Assembly (NCBI RefSeq): GCF_057098645.1
Contig: NZ_CM169472.1
DNA: 64,000 nt
Direction: 5' to 3' (one strand)
A program made the position numbers. Positions 27,001 through 33,000 of the stretch are shown here, in pieces. Every line of letters begins with the position of its first letter. Position 1 is the stretch's first letter.

Positions 27001-30000
27001 TTCAGGTATTTTAGCAGTTTCAGGTGTTGCAGGTGTTTCATATAGAATCACTGTTGTGAAATCTATATATTCAAGATAAGCGTTGCTAAGGTTACTTCCA
27101 GTAAAATTAACGCCAGTGAGAACTTTTCCGCTGAAGTTACTGTTTCGTAGATTTGCGTTTTTGAAATTTACATAAGTCAAGTGGCGAACTTTACGAAAAT
27201 CATTATTTTCTAATGAGGCATTTTTAAATTTTGCATTACGCAGATCACAATCTGTAAAATCCACGCCTTCACAGATCGTACCGGAGAACTTGGCATGTCT
27301 AAGAATGCTGCCATTAAAATTGACATTCCTTAGAACCATTTTAGACAAGTCTATGCCGGTTAAATCCATTTCTGCTAAATTCAACCCTTCGATACACCGT
27401 TGCCCCGTTGCATCTTCAGGAATAGCAGTGCTAATAGTATTGATGACAACATCACCTATCGTGAAGGTCATTGTAATTCCTGCATCAGAGATAGAGAGTT
27501 TTCGCGTAAGACGTTCACTCTTATCTCCAGTGATACTCTTCTGAGCAACGTAAAAGCGCTCGCATGTGTCACAAAATCTTTTCCAGCTCTCATTTGGGGT
27601 CAGATTATTGTCCGGGAGGAAATTAGCAATGCTATAAAGATCGTTCAGGACACTACTTCTTATTTCAGGAGAGGCGCACTCAATAATTTCAGAGGTGGAT
27701 ATTGTATTTTTAATTTTATCTATATTATCCGTGAGATTTCGTGATTCTGCTATATTTGGCTGCTGGTGGTTTTCTCTATAGTATTGCAGCAAATTTTCCC
27801 ATTGTAAGTTTGTAAACGAGAAAGTTTCAGTCTTGTTATTGTTATCCTGTATTGTTAATTGATTTTCTACTGGGTCAAAAGAAATCATGAAGTTATTCAG
27901 GTGTTGATATTGATGAGTGGCATCTAATTTCACTTCAAATGAATTTGAACTTTTGCAGGCATGTTTTAAAAACTTATCACAGGGAAGGTGTTGATCTTTA
28001 TCTACGTGTTGTGGGGCATTGTGCAAAACAGAGAAAATACTCTCTTTCAAATTGTTCTTGTCAATATAGATTGGTAGTTGCGCTTTTTGTTCCATTATTT
28101 TAATAAACTGCTGCAATTGCTCGGTTTTAACATTGCAGTGATGACTTATATCTTTATCTTTATCTTTAACAGTTAATACGCTTTCATTATCATCTTGTCG
28201 ATTAAATATTATTTTTAGATCGCCAACGTCAAACTCATGTAAACCATTTCTTTTGGTTCTGCCGATGATTTGTTCTGTTGTTAATGAATATCTATTTAAG
28301 GTTAATTCAAGATTGTCGGGATTAGAGATAAGGTGAATAAAAAGATTCAGTACACGCTTAATCAAACCGTCATTCAAATGATTTATATCATAATTAATTT
28401 GTTTTTGTATGGTTTCAATTTCCGTGTTAATATCAAATGGTAGGTTGTTTTTTTCATGGCAAGATTTTAGTCCCGAATACATGCCGAGTGTTGGGAAAAT
28501 ATCCTGGTATATGTTTAGGGAGCCCATATTTTTATCCTTGAATTGTGAAATGTTCTTCTAAATCTAAAATAATCAGGGGGATGGGTAAAGATAAGCTTCG
28601 CACAGAAACTTATCTTTTAACATTACAACACCCGGTAATCATTTTATTTCTCTATGCATAATTATGGGTTTAAGTATAATAAAATGTATTTTGTATTTTA
28701 GACGTAAAATAGTAAGGTGCTATCAAAAATCGCTCATTTTGTGGATGGGAAATATTTCATGGCAGGTGAGATATTTAATACAACTTCCTTCATGCAGGAT
28801 TATGCGCAGCCAATTATCCGCGCGTTATATTTAAAGATCTTATTGCCTGGTTGACGCTTCTGCATCGTAATGCACCACGCACTGCCAGTCGCTGCCCTGC
28901 TGGCAATATATCGCTTCGGTTTGCCCAGGGATCACCCATTGTATTTCCTCGCCGGGGGGACAGGTCAGCCAAATGCATAACCCGCAGCCGCCGCGTAAAT
29001 CACGGGGAATATCGCTGACGCGAAAAGTCATGCCCGCTGCCTGCAACGCCTTGCGGGTTTGTATGACGCCGACCGTGGAGTGAAATAAAAATAAAAACTC
29101 TTTCATCGGCGTGTCCTCACTCGTTGACCAATTACCGCCGCGCCAATTGCGCCAGCAAATTGCGCATCAGGATGGGTATTTACCGGCATTCCCAGGTGAG
29201 ATTCCAGCATCCTGGCAAACGTCTGGCAATGACTAACGCCACCAGTAAACAGAATCGGCGATTCACAGGAGAGACGAGCAATGAAATTGGCACTCCGCCG
29301 CGCCATCGCGTTAATCACTCCGGCGAGAATCGCTTCTGGCGCGACGCCCGCTGAGCGCAGGCTGATCACTTCTGATTCAGCAAACACTGTGCACATACTC
29401 GTGATGGCGTGCGGCGTGACATTTTCGGTAATGCTGTCGAGTTGCTCGACGCTGGTGCCAAGCGTGCGCGAGATCACCTCCAGGAAACGCCCGGTGCCCG
29501 CCGCGCATTTGTCATTCATCAGGAAATCGCACAGGTTACCGTCATCATCAAGCTGAATCACTTTGCTGTCCTGACCACCGATGTCGATTACCGCGCGCGT
29601 TGCTGGCGCAAGAAACCGTGCGCCCAGCCCATGACAGGAGATTTCCGTCACCTGTTTATCGGCAAAATCCACCAGTTGCCGCCCGTAGCCGGTGAGCGTC
29701 AGAAACGGCGATGTCTCTAACCCTTCGCGCAGAGTTTCCCAGGCTTCAGTAATTGCTGTTGCCGGATGAAAGGGTGTTGGAACGAGGAAACGGCGCGTAA
29801 TCACGCCGTCTGCCAGTAAGATCCCTTTGGTGGCGGTAGAACCAGAATCAATGCCAATCGAATATGTCACTGCCACTCCTTACAGCATCTCAATAAAGGC
29901 CGCGACACGGGTACTGAGCTGCCCGACATCTGAGGTGGAGTAGTCTGTTTCAATAGCGATATAAGGAATGTTGTGCTGCTGACGCACATGACGTTTAATC

Positions 30001-33000
30001 GCCAGCGATTCCACCGCGTAGGTATGGCACGCCTGTAAAATCACATCAACTACGCCATCGACCTGATATTCTTCCACCATCTGGCTGAGCATTTTCAGGC
30101 GCTGATCGTTCGGCGAAACACAGGAGCAGCCAATCGCCAGATATTTATCCGCCAGCGCGTCGTAGACATCGCCCGTTTCTGCCACGCATTGCTCGGTCGC
30201 TTTCGCCCCGGTGCAGTTTTCATAACCGACAACCCAGCCGCCATTCTCTTCAATCGCGCGCACCACTTTCTCTGCTGCACCGCCAATCGGGCAGCCGGTG
30301 ATTAAAATGCGCGGACGCGGGTCCAGTCGCTGGCCTTCTTCCCACTGCTGACGAATGCGGGCGGTCATCGCGTCCAGTTCATTGATCAACGCCTCTTTAT
30401 CGAACCGGAAGGTTGCACCGTAAACCACTTTCAGAATGTCGCTGCCGCTAAGCGCCGGAGGATTGAACTGCCCAAGATGATAAAAATTGGCCAGTGCGCG
30501 ACGTTCGCGGTTTTTCAGCGCAATGGCATCGCGCAGAGCATCTTCGCTAATCTCGTGCCCAAAACGTTCTTCCACCGCTTTTTGTAAGCGCAGCATCTCG
30601 GCTTTCCATAACGCACGCGAGGCATCGTCCTTAACGCTGTTCGGCAACTGCATCACATGAACAGGCTTAAACTCCGCCATGTATTCATACATTTTCTTTT
30701 TGCCGTCGCAGGTGGTTTCACCGACCACCAGATCCGAAAAGTAGAAGTAGGGGCATTTATCGGTTTTGCCAAAGCCGTAGCTGCTTTTAATCAGCGGGCA
30801 GAGGTTGCGCGGCAGATCTTTCTCCGCTTCTTCAATGGTTTCATCAGAGGTGGAACAGAGCGAAACCACAACCGCACCGGCTGCCATCGGGATCTCTTGC
30901 GGCATAAAGGTGCAGTAAGTGCCAACCAGCGGAATGCCGCGCTCCTTGAGATCCATGACGGTGAGAAAGCCTTTCTGGCGAGCTTCAGAGAACTGATCGA
31001 AAATGGCGGGTAGATCGGTGACAAGTGACATGATTTTCCTTCCCCGTACCACGGGAGATAATGAAAAGAGGCCACATTATTACCATTCTTTTAGTATGGT
31101 TTATTTGATCTCTCTCGCGGTTAGCCACTTAGTTTTTCATGGATTTCTAAAAATTGCCGAGGGGGAACAAGGCCGGGAGCTGCGACAGCAAATATAAAAT
31201 TAGCCCAATACAACCGCCAACCAGCGTACCGTTGACACGAATAAACTGCAGATCTTTGCCGATATTTAACTCTATTTGCCGCGACATATCCCGGGCATCC
31301 CAGCTTTTTACCGTATCGCTGATGTGGCGCGTCAGGAATGCGGAAAACTCAGGCGCGACGCGGTGCGCGGCTTGTTCCAGATGACCATTTAACGACGCCC
31401 GCAAGGCATCATCGGCAATTAACGTTTCGCCAAACCATTGACCCGCCCGCGCGATACGTTCTTTCACACGAGAATCTTCACTGTTGATATCCGCTTTCAG
31501 CCATTCCCGTAAATCCCCCCCACAATTCAGTGAGATAGCGGTTAAAAGCTTCATCTTCTTTCAGATAACTTTTTACGGCATCGGCTCGCGCTGCCATTTC
31601 CGGATCGTTTTTCAGCTTGTCGATCAGGGCAAAAGTGGCGCGATCAAACGCATGGCGGATCTGATGCGCGCGATCGCGGCTGATATCATCAAGCAAAGAA
31701 TTCACCGCGTCAGAAACCAACTCCGCGCTATGTTCGCCCAGCCATTCGGTGGGCAAAATTTTGGCTTTCAGCGGATGCTCGCTCTCCAGCCAGCGAACAA
31801 TTTGCTGGGCGATAAACTTGCGCGATTTATCGCGCTGGAGAAGGGCGATCAACTGTGCGATCAGCGTATCGAGCAGCACCTGATGACGATCGTTTTTGGT
31901 CATACTCTCCAGCATCAACGCACTGGTTCCGGAAAGATCGACCTTATCAATCGCCCGATGGACCGCGCGCTTAAGCAGGCGCTGAATACGCGCATCATCG
32001 GTCAGTTCAAGAAAACCGCTCATAATCTGCAACAGATGCTGACCAACGCGGCGGGCGTTTTCTGGCTGACTAAACCAGTTGCCAATCAACAACGCCGGTT
32101 CGTGACGTCGAATCAATGCCACCAGCGACTGGGTATCGAGAAATTTTTCCTGCACGAACTGACCGAGATTTTCTCCAATCCGGTCTTTATTACGCGGGAT
32201 AATCGCCGTATGACGAGAAATGATCGGAATTGGCACGCGGCGAAACAGCGCCACCACCGCAAACCAGTCCGCCAGCGCGCCGACCATCGCCGCTTCAGCA
32301 ATCGCCTTCACGCCGCTCACCCAAAAATTGGGCGGCAAAAACAGCGTAACGACAAAGGTAGCAGCGGCGATAAGCAGTAAAGAGAGCGCCAACATTTTGG
32401 CGCGTCTGAGTTCAATGAGTTTATTCATAACGTTAAGAATAGAGCCTGACGGCAGGATCGCGCAAAAATCACCGCTCCTCCGCCAGCTCGGCAGCCTGAT
32501 GTTGGCGCACGCGATTAAGCAATCCGGCCAGGGTGAAAACGACGATAACGCCCGCCACAACGGCTAACAGATGAAACGGCAAGCGACCGCCGTTAAACCA
32601 CAGCCAGCGGCCAATTTCGACCGAGACAGACATCACCATCAGGATCACCATATTCAGCGATGCGGAGACGGTCCCTTTCGGTAAGTTATTGGAAAACAGC
32701 GTAAAGCGGAATAAGGTCGGGAAGATCAAACCAATCCCGAAAGCATACAGACTGGTGCCCAGCACCGACCACAGCCAGACGTGCGGTGACAGCAGATTGC
32801 CGATAATCAACAGCGCGAGGCCGACCAGTTGAATGGGTACGGCACGCCAGATAAAGCGCGGTTCGGTCGGATCTTTAACGAAACGCGCCACGACGGCATT
32901 CGCGACAATCACCGCGCCGAACACCGGAACCTGTGTCCAGGCGAACTGCGAAGTTGTTAAGCCGCCCGCGTCGATCAGGATCACCGGCGAGACAGCCACC

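What the first reader, a model, noticed from the sequence alone, without database searches (positions are those of the whole stretch)
28840..31031. DUF3343 - activase - dehydratase-like operon of unknown substrate
yjiM (2-hydroxyacyl-CoA-dehydratase-like) and yjiL (ATP-dependent activase-like) are tightly coupled (4-bp gap), and a small Cys-rich ORF overlaps yjiL by 4 bp. The family normally performs radical, oxygen-sensitive dehydrations in strict anaerobes; its role in E. coli is unknown. Here the operon sits immediately beside the inserted effector-like gene.
Basis: partly seen in the sequence, partly recalled or inferred. Interest (0 to 1): 0.35.

Follow-up and report, generated by a model that had tools for sequence, protein, structure and literature searches.

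The report
Known E. coli yjiM-yjiL-ytiA reductase operon
This is the already annotated, near-universal E. coli operon yjiM-yjiL-ytiA: an oxygen-sensitive iron-sulfur reductase, its ATP-driven electron donor and a small cysteine carrier protein. Its substrate is still unknown, but its relatives sit among selenium-handling genes.

Summary
Three co-directional genes lie on the minus strand: yjiM (29880-31031), yjiL (29103-29870) and an 88-aa ORF (28840-29106). The last two share a 4-bp ATGA overlap. All three pass their Pfam thresholds (HGD-D, BcrAD_BadFG, DUF3343/Se_S_carrier).

The small ORF is a genuine gene. RefSeq names it ytiA. It is under purifying selection (dN/dS 0.06-0.25). It keeps its place and its stop/start overlap after the activase in 8 of 8 testable gamma-proteobacterial loci.

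"Dehydratase-like" is too coarse. YjiM meets NCBIfam's double-cubane-cluster reductase model (531 bits, cutoff 350). It has all seven family cysteines, is closest to the solved DCCP (6ENO) and has no second HGD-D partner. The system is therefore an ATP-driven low-potential reductase, not a 2-hydroxyacyl-CoA dehydratase.

The operon is present in 5386 of 5426 complete E. coli genomes. Published work shows it is FNR-activated and co-regulated with yedEF.

In Firmicutes, YjiM relatives with DUF3343 recur beside a Sec-lyase-like desulfurase, YedF, SelD and Se-dependent xanthine dehydrogenase genes. This points to anaerobic selenium/sulfur chemistry. That link is already in the literature in pieces.

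The neighbouring "effector-like" gene is espX6, and its position is incidental.

Verdict: a known, ordinary locus with an open substrate question.

The parts
29880..31031 (-). yjiM: 383-aa class II double-cubane-cluster protein (DCCP), the electron-accepting catalytic subunit. Conserved Cys are C40, C59, C78, C108, C273, C302 and C335.
   Evidence: PF06050, 406 bits. NF040772, 531 bits against cutoff 350. PDB 6ENO, E 2.5e-75. The seven Cys are invariant or nearly so in 35 diverse representatives. RefSeq product name.
29103..29870 (-). yjiL: 255-aa ATP-dependent electron-transfer ATPase ('archerase' / activase family; the DCCP reductase). GTG start. Cluster cysteines are C122 and C160. The N-terminal motif is GIDSGSTATK.
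   Evidence: PF01869, 258 bits. TIGR00241, 361 bits. PDB 1HUX E 7e-53 and DCCP-R 7YYL_E E 7e-47. C122 and C160 align with C127 and C166 of HgdC. AGGAG lies 5 nt before GTG 29870.
28840..29106 (-). ytiA: 88-aa DUF3343 / 'putative Se/S carrier' protein. Its start is translationally coupled to the yjiL stop (ATGA). C41 is invariant, in the motif DIPRxLRxGCGLC. The C-terminal tail (about residues 67-88) is variable and allele-specific here.
   Evidence: PF11823, 49 bits against cutoff 25. Alignments A2 and A5. dN/dS 0.06-0.25. AF2 model with pLDDT 87.6 and a ferredoxin-like fold. Conserved position in 8 of 8 testable gamma-proteobacterial loci.
31032..31146 (-). yjiN-yjiM intergenic region (115 bp), presumed to hold the promoter and leader of the operon. 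No convincing consensus promoter, FNR site or RNA element was found in it.
   Evidence: Promoter and terminator scan not above shuffled expectation. No Rfam match at E<=1. Motif scan.
31232..31245 (-). Candidate FNR-like palindrome TTTATTCGTGTCAA. It has 2 mismatches to TTGAT-N4-ATCAA and lies 201 nt upstream of the yjiM ATG, inside the 3' end of yjiN. This is a weak lead only.
   Evidence: About 0.15 such matches are expected by chance per 400 nt (own calculation). Myers 2013 lists yjiML as directly FNR-activated by ChIP and expression.

Best explanation
This is the known core-genome operon yjiM-yjiL-ytiA. It encodes a two-component, ATP-driven, low-potential reductase plus a small cysteine carrier.

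Proposed mechanism, by analogy with the solved DCCP/DCCP-R system (inferred, not shown here):
1. A YjiL dimer holds a [4Fe-4S] cluster at its interface, through C122 and C160 of each chain.
2. YjiL is reduced by ferredoxin or flavodoxin and binds ATP.
3. YjiL docks on the YjiM homodimer and uses ATP hydrolysis to push one electron uphill into YjiM's [8Fe-9S] double-cubane cluster. Six of the seven conserved cysteines are proposed to ligate that cluster.
4. The super-reduced cluster reduces a substrate that ordinary cellular reductants cannot reduce.

YjiM lacks about 36 N-terminal residues of the Carboxydothermus enzyme, which by the published review include its channel-closing helices. Its site should therefore admit something larger than acetylene or hydrazine.

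YtiA is translationally coupled to YjiL and made with it. I propose it uses its invariant Cys41 to present or accept a sulfur or selenium species (persulfide or perselenide) at this reductase.

The most likely physiological area is anaerobic selenium (or sulfur) mobilisation, feeding SelD-dependent pathways.

Status of each step:
- Shown here: the family memberships, the conserved residues, the conserved three-gene linkage and the selenium-type neighbourhoods of relatives.
- Inferred: the cluster type, the electron path, the carrier role of YtiA and the selenium substrate.
For: Family and residues:
- YjiM scores 531 bits on NF040772 (cutoff 350) and is far below all dehydratase and BCR subunit cutoffs.
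- Its best solved relative is DCCP 6ENO/7YYL, with the alignment starting at residue 62 of DCCP.
- Seven conserved Cys are present.
- It is the only HGD-D gene in the window.
- YjiL matches HgdC, HadI and DCCP-R, with both cluster Cys aligned.

Published statements:
- A review names YjiM/YjiL a class II DCCP system.
- yjiML is listed as directly FNR-activated.
- yjiLM shares an anaerobic iModulon with yedEF and ynjE.
- YjiM protein has been detected by proteomics.
- Haft: 955 of 970 DCCPs lie in SelD-containing genomes.
- Lin 2015: DUF3343 is linked to YedF, Sec lyase and the activase.
- The mlp gene-cluster preprint (PMC10418091; homologs of methanogenesis methyltransferases) lists DCCP and DCCPR among putative selenium genes.

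Linkage of ytiA:
- The order DCCP-activase-DUF3343, with stop/start overlap, is found in 8 of 8 testable gamma-proteobacterial loci, from Escherichia to Aeromonas.
- DUF3343 is present in 14 of 71 Firmicute/Actinobacterial YjiM-like loci. Gene orders vary but it usually abuts a DCCP, an activase or a class-V aminotransferase.

Selenium context of relatives:
- EF2568-type cysteine desulfurase, near SclA Sec lyase: 11-14 loci.
- YedF (TIGR03527): 8 loci.
- SelD: 4 loci.
- XdhC: 4 loci.
- A Se-dependent xanthine dehydrogenase sits directly after the DCCP-activase pair in Enterococcus.
- YqeC is present in a metagenomic locus.
Against: - No substrate or activity is known for any class II DCCP.
- In E. 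coli and the other gamma-proteobacteria no selenium gene lies within 7 kb.
- Only 16 of 71 non-proteobacterial loci carry any selenium-type marker. Many have neither DUF3343 nor an adjacent activase.
- The loci are phylogenetically clustered (many Lachnospiraceae), so the counts are not independent.
- Reduction of a persulfide or perselenide does not obviously need ATP-boosted electrons.
- The DCCP-SelD co-occurrence could simply reflect a shared anaerobic lifestyle.
Confidence: 0.55

Rival explanations
1. Class II DCCP acting on an organic substrate unrelated to selenium, such as a CoA ester, an aromatic or heterocyclic ring, or another hard-to-reduce metabolite. In this reading YtiA is a generic accessory protein, and the selenium neighbourhoods in Firmicutes belong to other paralogues or reflect shared anaerobic ecology.
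For: [quoted passage not shown]
- The nearest characterised relatives all act on CoA thioesters.
- 55 of 71 non-proteobacterial loci have no selenium-type marker.
- Other recurrent neighbours are PatB C-S lyase and corrinoid methyltransferase sets.
- One representative has a DCCP followed by a PucR-type HTH, a purine-catabolism regulator family.
Against: - No CoA-transferase, CoA-ligase or beta-oxidation-type genes recur next to the YjiM-like loci.
- E. coli yjiLM is co-regulated with yedEF and ynjE.
- DUF3343 is tied both to this system and to Sec-lyase-like enzymes.
Confidence: 0.25
2. YtiA, with a NifS-like enzyme where one is present, is a maturation factor for the reductase rather than a substrate carrier. 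It would deliver the ninth, bridging chalcogenide (sulfide, or possibly selenide) needed to join two cubanes into the double-cubane cluster of YjiM.
For: - DUF3343 repeatedly sits between or beside a DCCP and its activase, and next to a class-V aminotransferase, whatever the wider context (xanthine dehydrogenase, corrinoid methyltransferases or none).
- Haft raises a possible 2(4Fe-4S)-Se cluster and reports the near-obligate SelD co-occurrence.
- Translational coupling implies co-production with YjiL.
Against: - DCCP from Carboxydothermus assembled its cluster when produced in E. coli without a cognate DUF3343 being co-expressed, as described in the review.
- Most DCCP loci lack a nearby DUF3343.
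- Nothing here tests this directly.
Confidence: 0.12
3. One reading: a genuine 2-hydroxyacyl-CoA dehydratase with its activator, performing a ketyl-radical dehydration of an unknown 2-hydroxyacyl-CoA.
For: - Pfam HGD-D and BcrAD_BadFG matches.
- YjiL is most similar in sequence to the activators HgdC and HadI.
- Older database names call it a 2-hydroxyacyl-CoA dehydratase.
Against: - There is only one HGD-D gene, whereas these dehydratases are alpha/beta heterodimers.
- HadB and HadC model scores are 20 and 95 bits against cutoffs of 750 and 700.
- The seven-Cys DCCP pattern is present.
- The best structural relative is DCCP.
- No CoA-transferase gene is adjacent.
Confidence: 0.05
4. The 88-aa ORF is a chance ORF and not a gene.
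For: - It is short.
- Its last 20 or so codons are poorly conserved and differ between this strain and K-12.
Against: - It matches Pfam above the gathering threshold.
- dN/dS is 0.06-0.25 across genera.
- Its position and its start overlap with the yjiL stop are conserved in 8 of 8 loci.
- The motif is invariant.
- The AF2 model is confident.
- Homologues occur in Firmicutes in the same neighbourhood.
Confidence: 0.02

Closest known systems
DCCP / DCCP-R of Carboxydothermus hydrogenoformans (CHY_0487/CHY_0488; PDB 6ENO, 7YYL)
   Same: - HGD-D fold and the same seven conserved cysteines.
- A single-gene (homodimeric) acceptor.
- An adjacent BcrAD_BadFG ATPase as the ATP-dependent reductase.
- YjiM aligns over residues 26-383 at E 2.5e-75, and YjiL matches DCCP-R at E 7e-47.
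- Both reach the NF040772 cutoff.
   Different: - YjiM lacks about 36 N-terminal residues. By the review, this is class II, with a more open active site.
- Cys spacing is slightly shorter than the published motif: X164 against X166-170, and X28 against X32-34.
- The E. coli operon carries a third, translationally coupled DUF3343 gene.
- The host is a facultative anaerobe.
2-hydroxyacyl-CoA dehydratases with activators (HgdAB/HgdC of Acidaminococcus; HadBC/HadI of Clostridioides difficile)
   Same: - The same two Pfam families.
- The activator is the closest solved sequence relative of YjiL: 1HUX at E 7e-53 and 4EHT at E 3e-52.
- The ATP-driven one-electron injection logic is the same.
   Different: - Dehydratases have two different HGD-D subunits, each with one [4Fe-4S] cluster, and act catalytically after a single activation.
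- YjiM is a single subunit with the DCCP cysteine set, and it fails the HadB and HadC models.
Class I benzoyl-CoA reductases (BzdNOPQ, MbdNOPQ; PDB 8S02, 9G87/9GAI)
   Same: - Homologous acceptor subunits: BzdN at E 5e-19 and MbdN at E 1e-17.
- Homologous ATPase subunits: MbdQ at E 2e-51 and MbdP at E 8e-41.
- ATP-coupled low-potential reduction, with an [8Fe-9S] cluster reported in this enzyme class.
   Different: - BCRs are four-subunit enzymes with two different acceptor subunits and two different ATPase subunits.
- YjiM and YjiL score far below the BCR subunit cutoffs.
- No aromatic-degradation genes are nearby.
Small Cys-based sulfur/selenium relay proteins (TusA/YedF, SufE/CsdE) and the DUF3343 'Se/S carrier' proposal of Lin et al. 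2015
   Same: - YtiA is an 80-100-aa alpha/beta protein with one invariant Cys.
- Its homologues are typically encoded next to a NifS-like or Sec-lyase-like PLP enzyme and YedF.
   Different: - No sequence or specific fold similarity to TusA or SufE was found.
- The motif is P-x-P-x(5-6)-C-G, not the CPxP of TusA.
- No persulfide or perselenide on DUF3343 has been shown.
- In E. coli it is coupled to the reductase ATPase rather than to a desulfurase.

Membership tests
Double-cubane cluster protein (DCCP) reductases, NF040772 | Sequence meets the curated family model | tested here: met
   NF040772 scores 531.2 bits against a cutoff of 350, with full-length coverage 14-383.
Double-cubane cluster protein (DCCP) reductases, NF040772 | Seven conserved cysteines (six cluster ligands plus one near the cluster opening) | tested here: met
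   C40, C59, C78, C108, C273, C302 and C335 are invariant or at least 90% conserved in 35 diverse representatives, and they align with Cys of 6ENO. The literal published spacing regex did not match, because three spacers are shorter in YjiM: X18, X164 and X28.
Double-cubane cluster protein (DCCP) reductases, NF040772 | Single HGD-D subunit (homodimer) encoded next to an ATP-dependent BcrAD_BadFG reductase | tested here: met
   There is one HGD-D gene and one activase gene in the 64-kb window, 9 bp apart. A directly adjacent same-strand activase is found in 41 of 72 related loci.
Double-cubane cluster protein (DCCP) reductases, NF040772 | Contains an [8Fe-9S] cluster and shows ATP- and reductase-dependent substrate reduction | not testable with these tools
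   This needs anoxic purification, spectroscopy or crystallography, and activity assays.
Electron-transfer ATPases of the BcrAD_BadFG / 'archerase' family | ASKHA-fold family match with the N-terminal phosphate-binding motif | tested here: met
   PF01869 at 258 bits. TIGR00241 at 361 bits against a cutoff of 125. The motif GIDSGSTATKG is at residues 6-16.
Electron-transfer ATPases of the BcrAD_BadFG / 'archerase' family | Two cysteines per chain that hold the inter-subunit [4Fe-4S] cluster | tested here: met
   YjiL C122 and C160 align with C127 and C166 of HgdC (1HUX). The assignment of those HgdC residues as cluster ligands is from my own knowledge of the 1HUX structure.
DUF3343 / Se_S_carrier (PF11823) | Pfam model above the gathering score, size 80-100 aa, one invariant Cys | tested here: met
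   49.2 bits against a cutoff of 25, covering residues 4-59. The protein is 88 aa. C41 and G42 are invariant across Proteobacteria and Firmicutes. This agrees with the description by Lin 2015.
DUF3343 / Se_S_carrier (PF11823) | Encoded next to YedF, Sec-lyase-like or other selenium genes (the basis of the 'Se/S carrier' name) | tested here: not met
   No AT5/EF2568-type, YedF or SelD homologue is in the window or within 7 kb in any of 9 gamma-proteobacterial loci. The feature is met in Firmicute relatives.
DUF3343 / Se_S_carrier (PF11823) | Actually binds or transfers S or Se on the conserved Cys | not testable with these tools
   Not demonstrated for any family member in the papers read.
2-hydroxyacyl-CoA dehydratase (HgdAB / HadBC type) | Two paralogous HGD-D subunits (alpha and beta) | tested here: not met
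   Only one HGD-D ORF is in the window and in the annotated E. coli region.
2-hydroxyacyl-CoA dehydratase (HgdAB / HadBC type) | Meets the curated subunit models | tested here: not met
   HadC scores 95 bits against 700, and HadB scores 20.5 bits against 750.
Class I benzoyl-CoA reductase | Meets the curated subunit models and has four-subunit organisation | tested here: not met
   For YjiM, BzdN scores 78 against 454, BcrC 59 against 421 and BcrB 24 against 487. For YjiL, BzdQ scores 162 against 380, and BcrA and BcrD are below cutoff. Only two such genes are present.

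The most novel reading that the evidence does not exclude
YtiA-YjiL-YjiM is the missing ATP-driven step of selenium assimilation in anaerobes. YtiA would carry selenium on Cys41, as a perselenide, bound Se(0) or an organoselenium fragment. The double-cubane enzyme would use ATP-boosted electrons to reduce it to selenide, for SelD or for the Mo-Se cofactor of selenium-dependent hydroxylases.

The very low potential I recall for the Se(0)/HSe- couple, about -0.7 V (own knowledge, not checked here), would explain why an ATP-coupled reductase is needed.

DUF3343 would then be an obligate third component of many DCCP systems. None of the papers read here proposes such a role.
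Probability: 0.2. Interest if true: 0.75.

Novelty: already known. Interest (0 to 1): 0.3.

Why it matters
YjiM/YjiL is the only member in E. coli of a class of ATP-driven, nitrogenase-like low-potential reductases, and no physiological substrate is known for that class. E. coli is the most tractable host in which to find one.

This work and the literature converge on a concrete, testable link to selenium or sulfur handling:
- a conserved DUF3343 partner;
- FNR activation;
- co-regulation with yedEF;
- selenium-gene neighbourhoods in Firmicutes.

How cells supply selenide to SelD is still poorly understood. Nothing about this particular window changes that picture. The locus is the ordinary, annotated one, and its neighbour espX6 is a strain-specific insertion.

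Tried and rejected
- **Literal 7-Cys regex on YjiM.** No match. Alignment resolved this: all seven Cys are present with shorter spacers.
- **Sequence searches of YtiA against the PDB, single sequence and profile.** Only noise, with E>=0.04.
- **Promoter and terminator scan of 28300-32700.** Counts were no higher than in shuffles, and no terminator-like site lies between ytiA and espX6.
- **FNR, CRP and NarL motif scans upstream of yjiM.** Only one 2-mismatch FNR-like site, 201 nt upstream, which is compatible with chance.
- **Rfam at E<=1 over 28300-31400.** Nothing.
- **Domain-fusion search among long DCCP representatives.** Activase-DCCP fusions and one PucR-HTH fusion were found, but no DUF3343 fusion.
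- **Attempt at an unbiased survey of DUF3343 neighbourhoods.** The word-indexed search mostly returned relatives of my own seeds, which came from DCCP loci. These four look-ups confirm the module but cannot estimate how often DUF3343 occurs without a DCCP.
- **A complex prediction of YtiA with YjiL or YjiM.** Not attempted, because the structure tool returns no inter-chain confidence.

Full report
**What is there**

The window is Escherichia coli; bases 28600-31250 are 100% identical to O145 strain RM9872. Three genes lie head to tail on the minus strand:
- yjiM, 29880-31031, 383 aa, ATG start;
- yjiL, 29103-29870, 255 aa, GTG start;
- an 88-aa ORF, 28840-29106.

Reading the junctions directly:
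- The yjiM stop TAA is part of TAAGGAG. That AGGAG lies 5 nt before GTG 29870, the RefSeq start, so the true gap is 9 bp.

All three proteins pass their Pfam thresholds: HGD-D 406 bits, BcrAD_BadFG 258 bits, and Se_S_carrier (formerly DUF3343) 49 bits against a cutoff of 25. No Rfam element, above-chance promoter or terminator was found.

**Is the small ORF a gene?**

Yes, and it is already annotated. RefSeq calls it ytiA, "DUF3343 domain-containing" or "putative Se/S carrier protein", in K-12 and thousands of other genomes.
- Homologues exist throughout Enterobacteriaceae, with an invariant DIPRxLRxGCGLC motif and a variable tail.
- Over codons 2-66, pairwise dN/dS between genera is 0.06-0.25 wherever dS is not saturated.
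- I scanned one genome per species for YjiM relatives. All 9 gamma-proteobacterial loci have the activase directly after the DCCP gene. 8 of 9 have DUF3343 next; the ninth contig ends before that position. This covers Escherichia, Superficieibacter, Citrobacter, Cedecea, Hafnia, Morganella and Aeromonas.
- The stop/start overlap is kept as ATGA, GTGA or TAATG.
- An AlphaFold model is confident (pLDDT 87.6) and shows a beta-alpha-beta-beta-alpha-beta-beta ferredoxin-like sandwich.

**What the enzyme is**

The Pfam label HGD-D covers dehydratases, benzoyl-CoA reductases and double-cubane cluster proteins (DCCPs). YjiM belongs to the DCCPs:
- It scores 531 bits on NCBIfam NF040772 "double-cubane-cluster-containing anaerobic reductase" (cutoff 350). 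It scores only 95 against 700 on HadC and 78 against 454 on BzdN.
- Its closest solved relative is DCCP of Carboxydothermus (6ENO, E 2.5e-75).
- In an alignment of 35 diverse representatives, exactly seven cysteines are invariant or nearly so: C40, C59, C78, C108, C273, C302 and C335. That matches the published seven-Cys signature, apart from three shorter spacers, which is why a literal regex failed.
- It is the only HGD-D gene in the window. Dehydratases need two different subunits.

YjiL matches the activators HgdC and HadI and the DCCP reductase (E 1e-47 to 1e-53). Its C122 and C160 align with HgdC C127 and C166, which I know as the cluster ligands of that structure.

The Jeoung/Dobbek review already calls YjiM a putative class II DCCP and YjiL its "archerase". 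It notes that YjiM lacks the channel-closing N-terminal helices and could take a larger substrate. My alignment agrees: it starts at residue 62 of DCCP and residue 26 of YjiM.

The system is therefore best read as an ATP-driven low-potential reductase, not a radical dehydratase.

**Distribution and regulation**

- The operon is present in 5386 of 5426 complete E. coli genomes.
- YjiM is 86-89% identical across enterobacterial genera, against 54-79% for YtiA.
- Myers et al. 2013 list yjiML among operons directly activated by FNR.
- Sastry et al. 2021 find an anaerobic iModulon made of four operons, printed in the paper as ynjXYZABCD, yedEF, yjiLM and ynjE.
- YjiM protein has been seen by proteomics.
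- My motif scan found only one weak FNR-like site (TTTATTCGTGTCAA, 31245-31232), which chance could explain.

**Clues to function from relatives**

Among 71 non-proteobacterial loci with YjiM-like genes (52-66% identity; Clostridia, Enterococcus, Listeria, Lactobacillales, Coriobacteriia):
- 44 have an activase and 14 have a DUF3343 gene within 7 kb.
- The DUF3343 gene appears in several different orders: long-DCCP then DUF3343 then activase; aminotransferase then DUF3343 then activase then DCCP; DCCP then activase then aminotransferase then DUF3343. That variety argues for selection on the linkage rather than inherited synteny.

Clustering the neighbours and naming them gave:
- a class-V aminotransferase of the EF2568 family, second-best match SclA selenocysteine lyase: 11-14 loci;
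- the long YedF "selenium metabolism protein" (TIGR03527): 8 loci;
- SelD: 4 loci;
- XdhC: 4 loci;
- in Enterococcus sp. DIV0212c, the string XdhC, DCCP, activase, selenium-dependent xanthine dehydrogenase (TIGR03311, 1550 bits), MocA-like, EF2568-type, SelD, YedF;
- sets of corrinoid methyltransferase, B12-binding protein and RACo: 7-9 loci. These are the "mlp" clusters that a preprint links to methyl-selenide metabolism, listing DCCP and DCCPR as putative selenium genes.

Four further DUF3343 look-ups again showed aminotransferase, DCCP, DUF3343. One sat inside a YedF, YqeC, MocA-like, XdhC cluster.

This agrees with three published observations:
- Haft: 955 of 970 DCCPs lie in SelD-containing genomes.
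- Lin et al. 2015: the DUF3343 "Se/S chaperone" proposal.
- The same paper's STRING table already shows the activase and HGD subunits linked to DUF3343 and YedF.

**Caveats**

- Only 16 of 71 loci carry any such marker.
- The loci are not phylogenetically independent.
- The four look-ups were seeded from DCCP loci.
- No selenium gene lies near the operon in any gamma-proteobacterium.

**Most likely mechanism**

*Shown:* family membership, ligand cysteines, the conserved three-gene linkage, and selenium-type neighbourhoods in relatives.

*Inferred, by analogy with DCCP/DCCP-R:*
1. Reduced, ATP-bound YjiL docks on dimeric YjiM.
2. YjiL injects an electron into an [8Fe-9S] cluster.
3. That cluster reduces a refractory substrate.

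*More speculative:* YtiA uses Cys41 to present or accept a sulfur or selenium species, and the pathway serves anaerobic selenium mobilisation.

*Rivals:*
- an unrelated organic (CoA-ester-type) substrate;
- YtiA as a maturation factor supplying the bridging chalcogenide;
- the dehydratase reading, which sequence evidence largely excludes.

**Surroundings**

- The "inserted effector-like gene" is espX6, a T3SS pentapeptide-repeat effector, present in about 578-639 of 5426 genomes.
- It sits in a low-GC segment, 26087-28865, that K-12 lacks.
- The breakpoint falls in the last codons of ytiA. As a result the tail of this allele (88 aa) differs from K-12's (85 aa): dN 0.44 and dS 1.27 in the tail, against 0.013 and 0.146 in the body of the gene.
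- The Pfam domain (residues 4-59) is untouched.
- Nothing links espX6 functionally to the operon.

**Verdict**

The interpretation needs one substantive correction: a DCCP reductase, not a dehydratase. The open question, the substrate, is interesting and testable in E. coli, but it is not specific to this window.

Noticed in passing
window 31147-32560 (minus), G-run at about 31515-31521: yjiN (DUF445) is split into two ORFs (31478-32560 and 31147-31554) by one extra G in a G-run: G7 here against G6 in strain RM9872, where yjiN is an intact 426-aa gene. This is either a pseudogene or a homopolymer sequencing error.
   Followed up: partly
window 26087-28865; gene 26359-28527 (minus): A low-GC (31-40%) segment absent from K-12 carries a 722-aa pentapeptide-repeat gene. 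RefSeq names it espX6 (T3SS effector) in O157 genomes. It is found in about 578-639 of 5426 complete E. coli genomes, always chromosomal.
   Followed up: partly
window 26471-26640: 24/48-bp tandem repeats lie in the 3' part of espX6, encoding the ...QANDSTDK... repeats. The window copy is 16 aa (48 bp, the length of one repeat unit) longer than the 706-aa CDS annotated in RM9872. No complete genome matches this segment at 99% or better, which may reflect repeat-number variation.
   Followed up: partly
window 24026-26086 versus 28866-33000: yjiJ and yjiK are only 80.6% identical to K-12, while ytiA through mdtM is 97.2% identical. A sharp change of allele lineage occurs at the 3' end of ytiA. 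The last 20 or so ytiA codons show dN 0.44 and dS 1.27 against K-12.
   Followed up: partly
window 28528-28839 (minus): ytiA and espX6 are on the same strand, 312 bp apart in AT-rich DNA, with no terminator-like hairpin detected. Read-through from the FNR-activated operon into the effector gene is conceivable but untested.
   Followed up: no
L019 5906-14498 (Enterococcus sp. DIV0212c); L087 1-8057 (metagenome): YjiM/YjiL orthologues are embedded in selenium-dependent molybdenum hydroxylase loci. L019 reads XdhC, DCCP, activase, Se-dependent XDH, MocA-like, EF2568-type desulfurase, SelD, YedF. L087 reads YedF, unknown, AT5, YqeC, MocA-like, AT5, DCCP, DUF3343, activase, XdhC.
   Followed up: partly
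L029, L030, L056, L058, L074: Several Firmicute genomes carry two DCCP paralogues side by side or nearby: a short YjiM-like one (about 383 aa) and a long one (419-453 aa, also above the NF040772 cutoff in L056). The DUF3343 gene is attached to the long paralogue and the activase.
   Followed up: partly
protein P0242 (722 aa, representative library): A YjiM-like DCCP (residues 1-383) is followed by a PucR-type C-terminal HTH domain in one polypeptide. This could be a real fusion with a purine-catabolism-type regulator or a gene-calling artefact.
   Followed up: no
window 34336-35112 (+): The Rpn-family (yjiP/yjiQ, rpnD-like) recombination-promoting nuclease gene downstream of mdtM is annotated as a pseudogene with an internal stop, in both RM9872 and K-12.
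   Followed up: no
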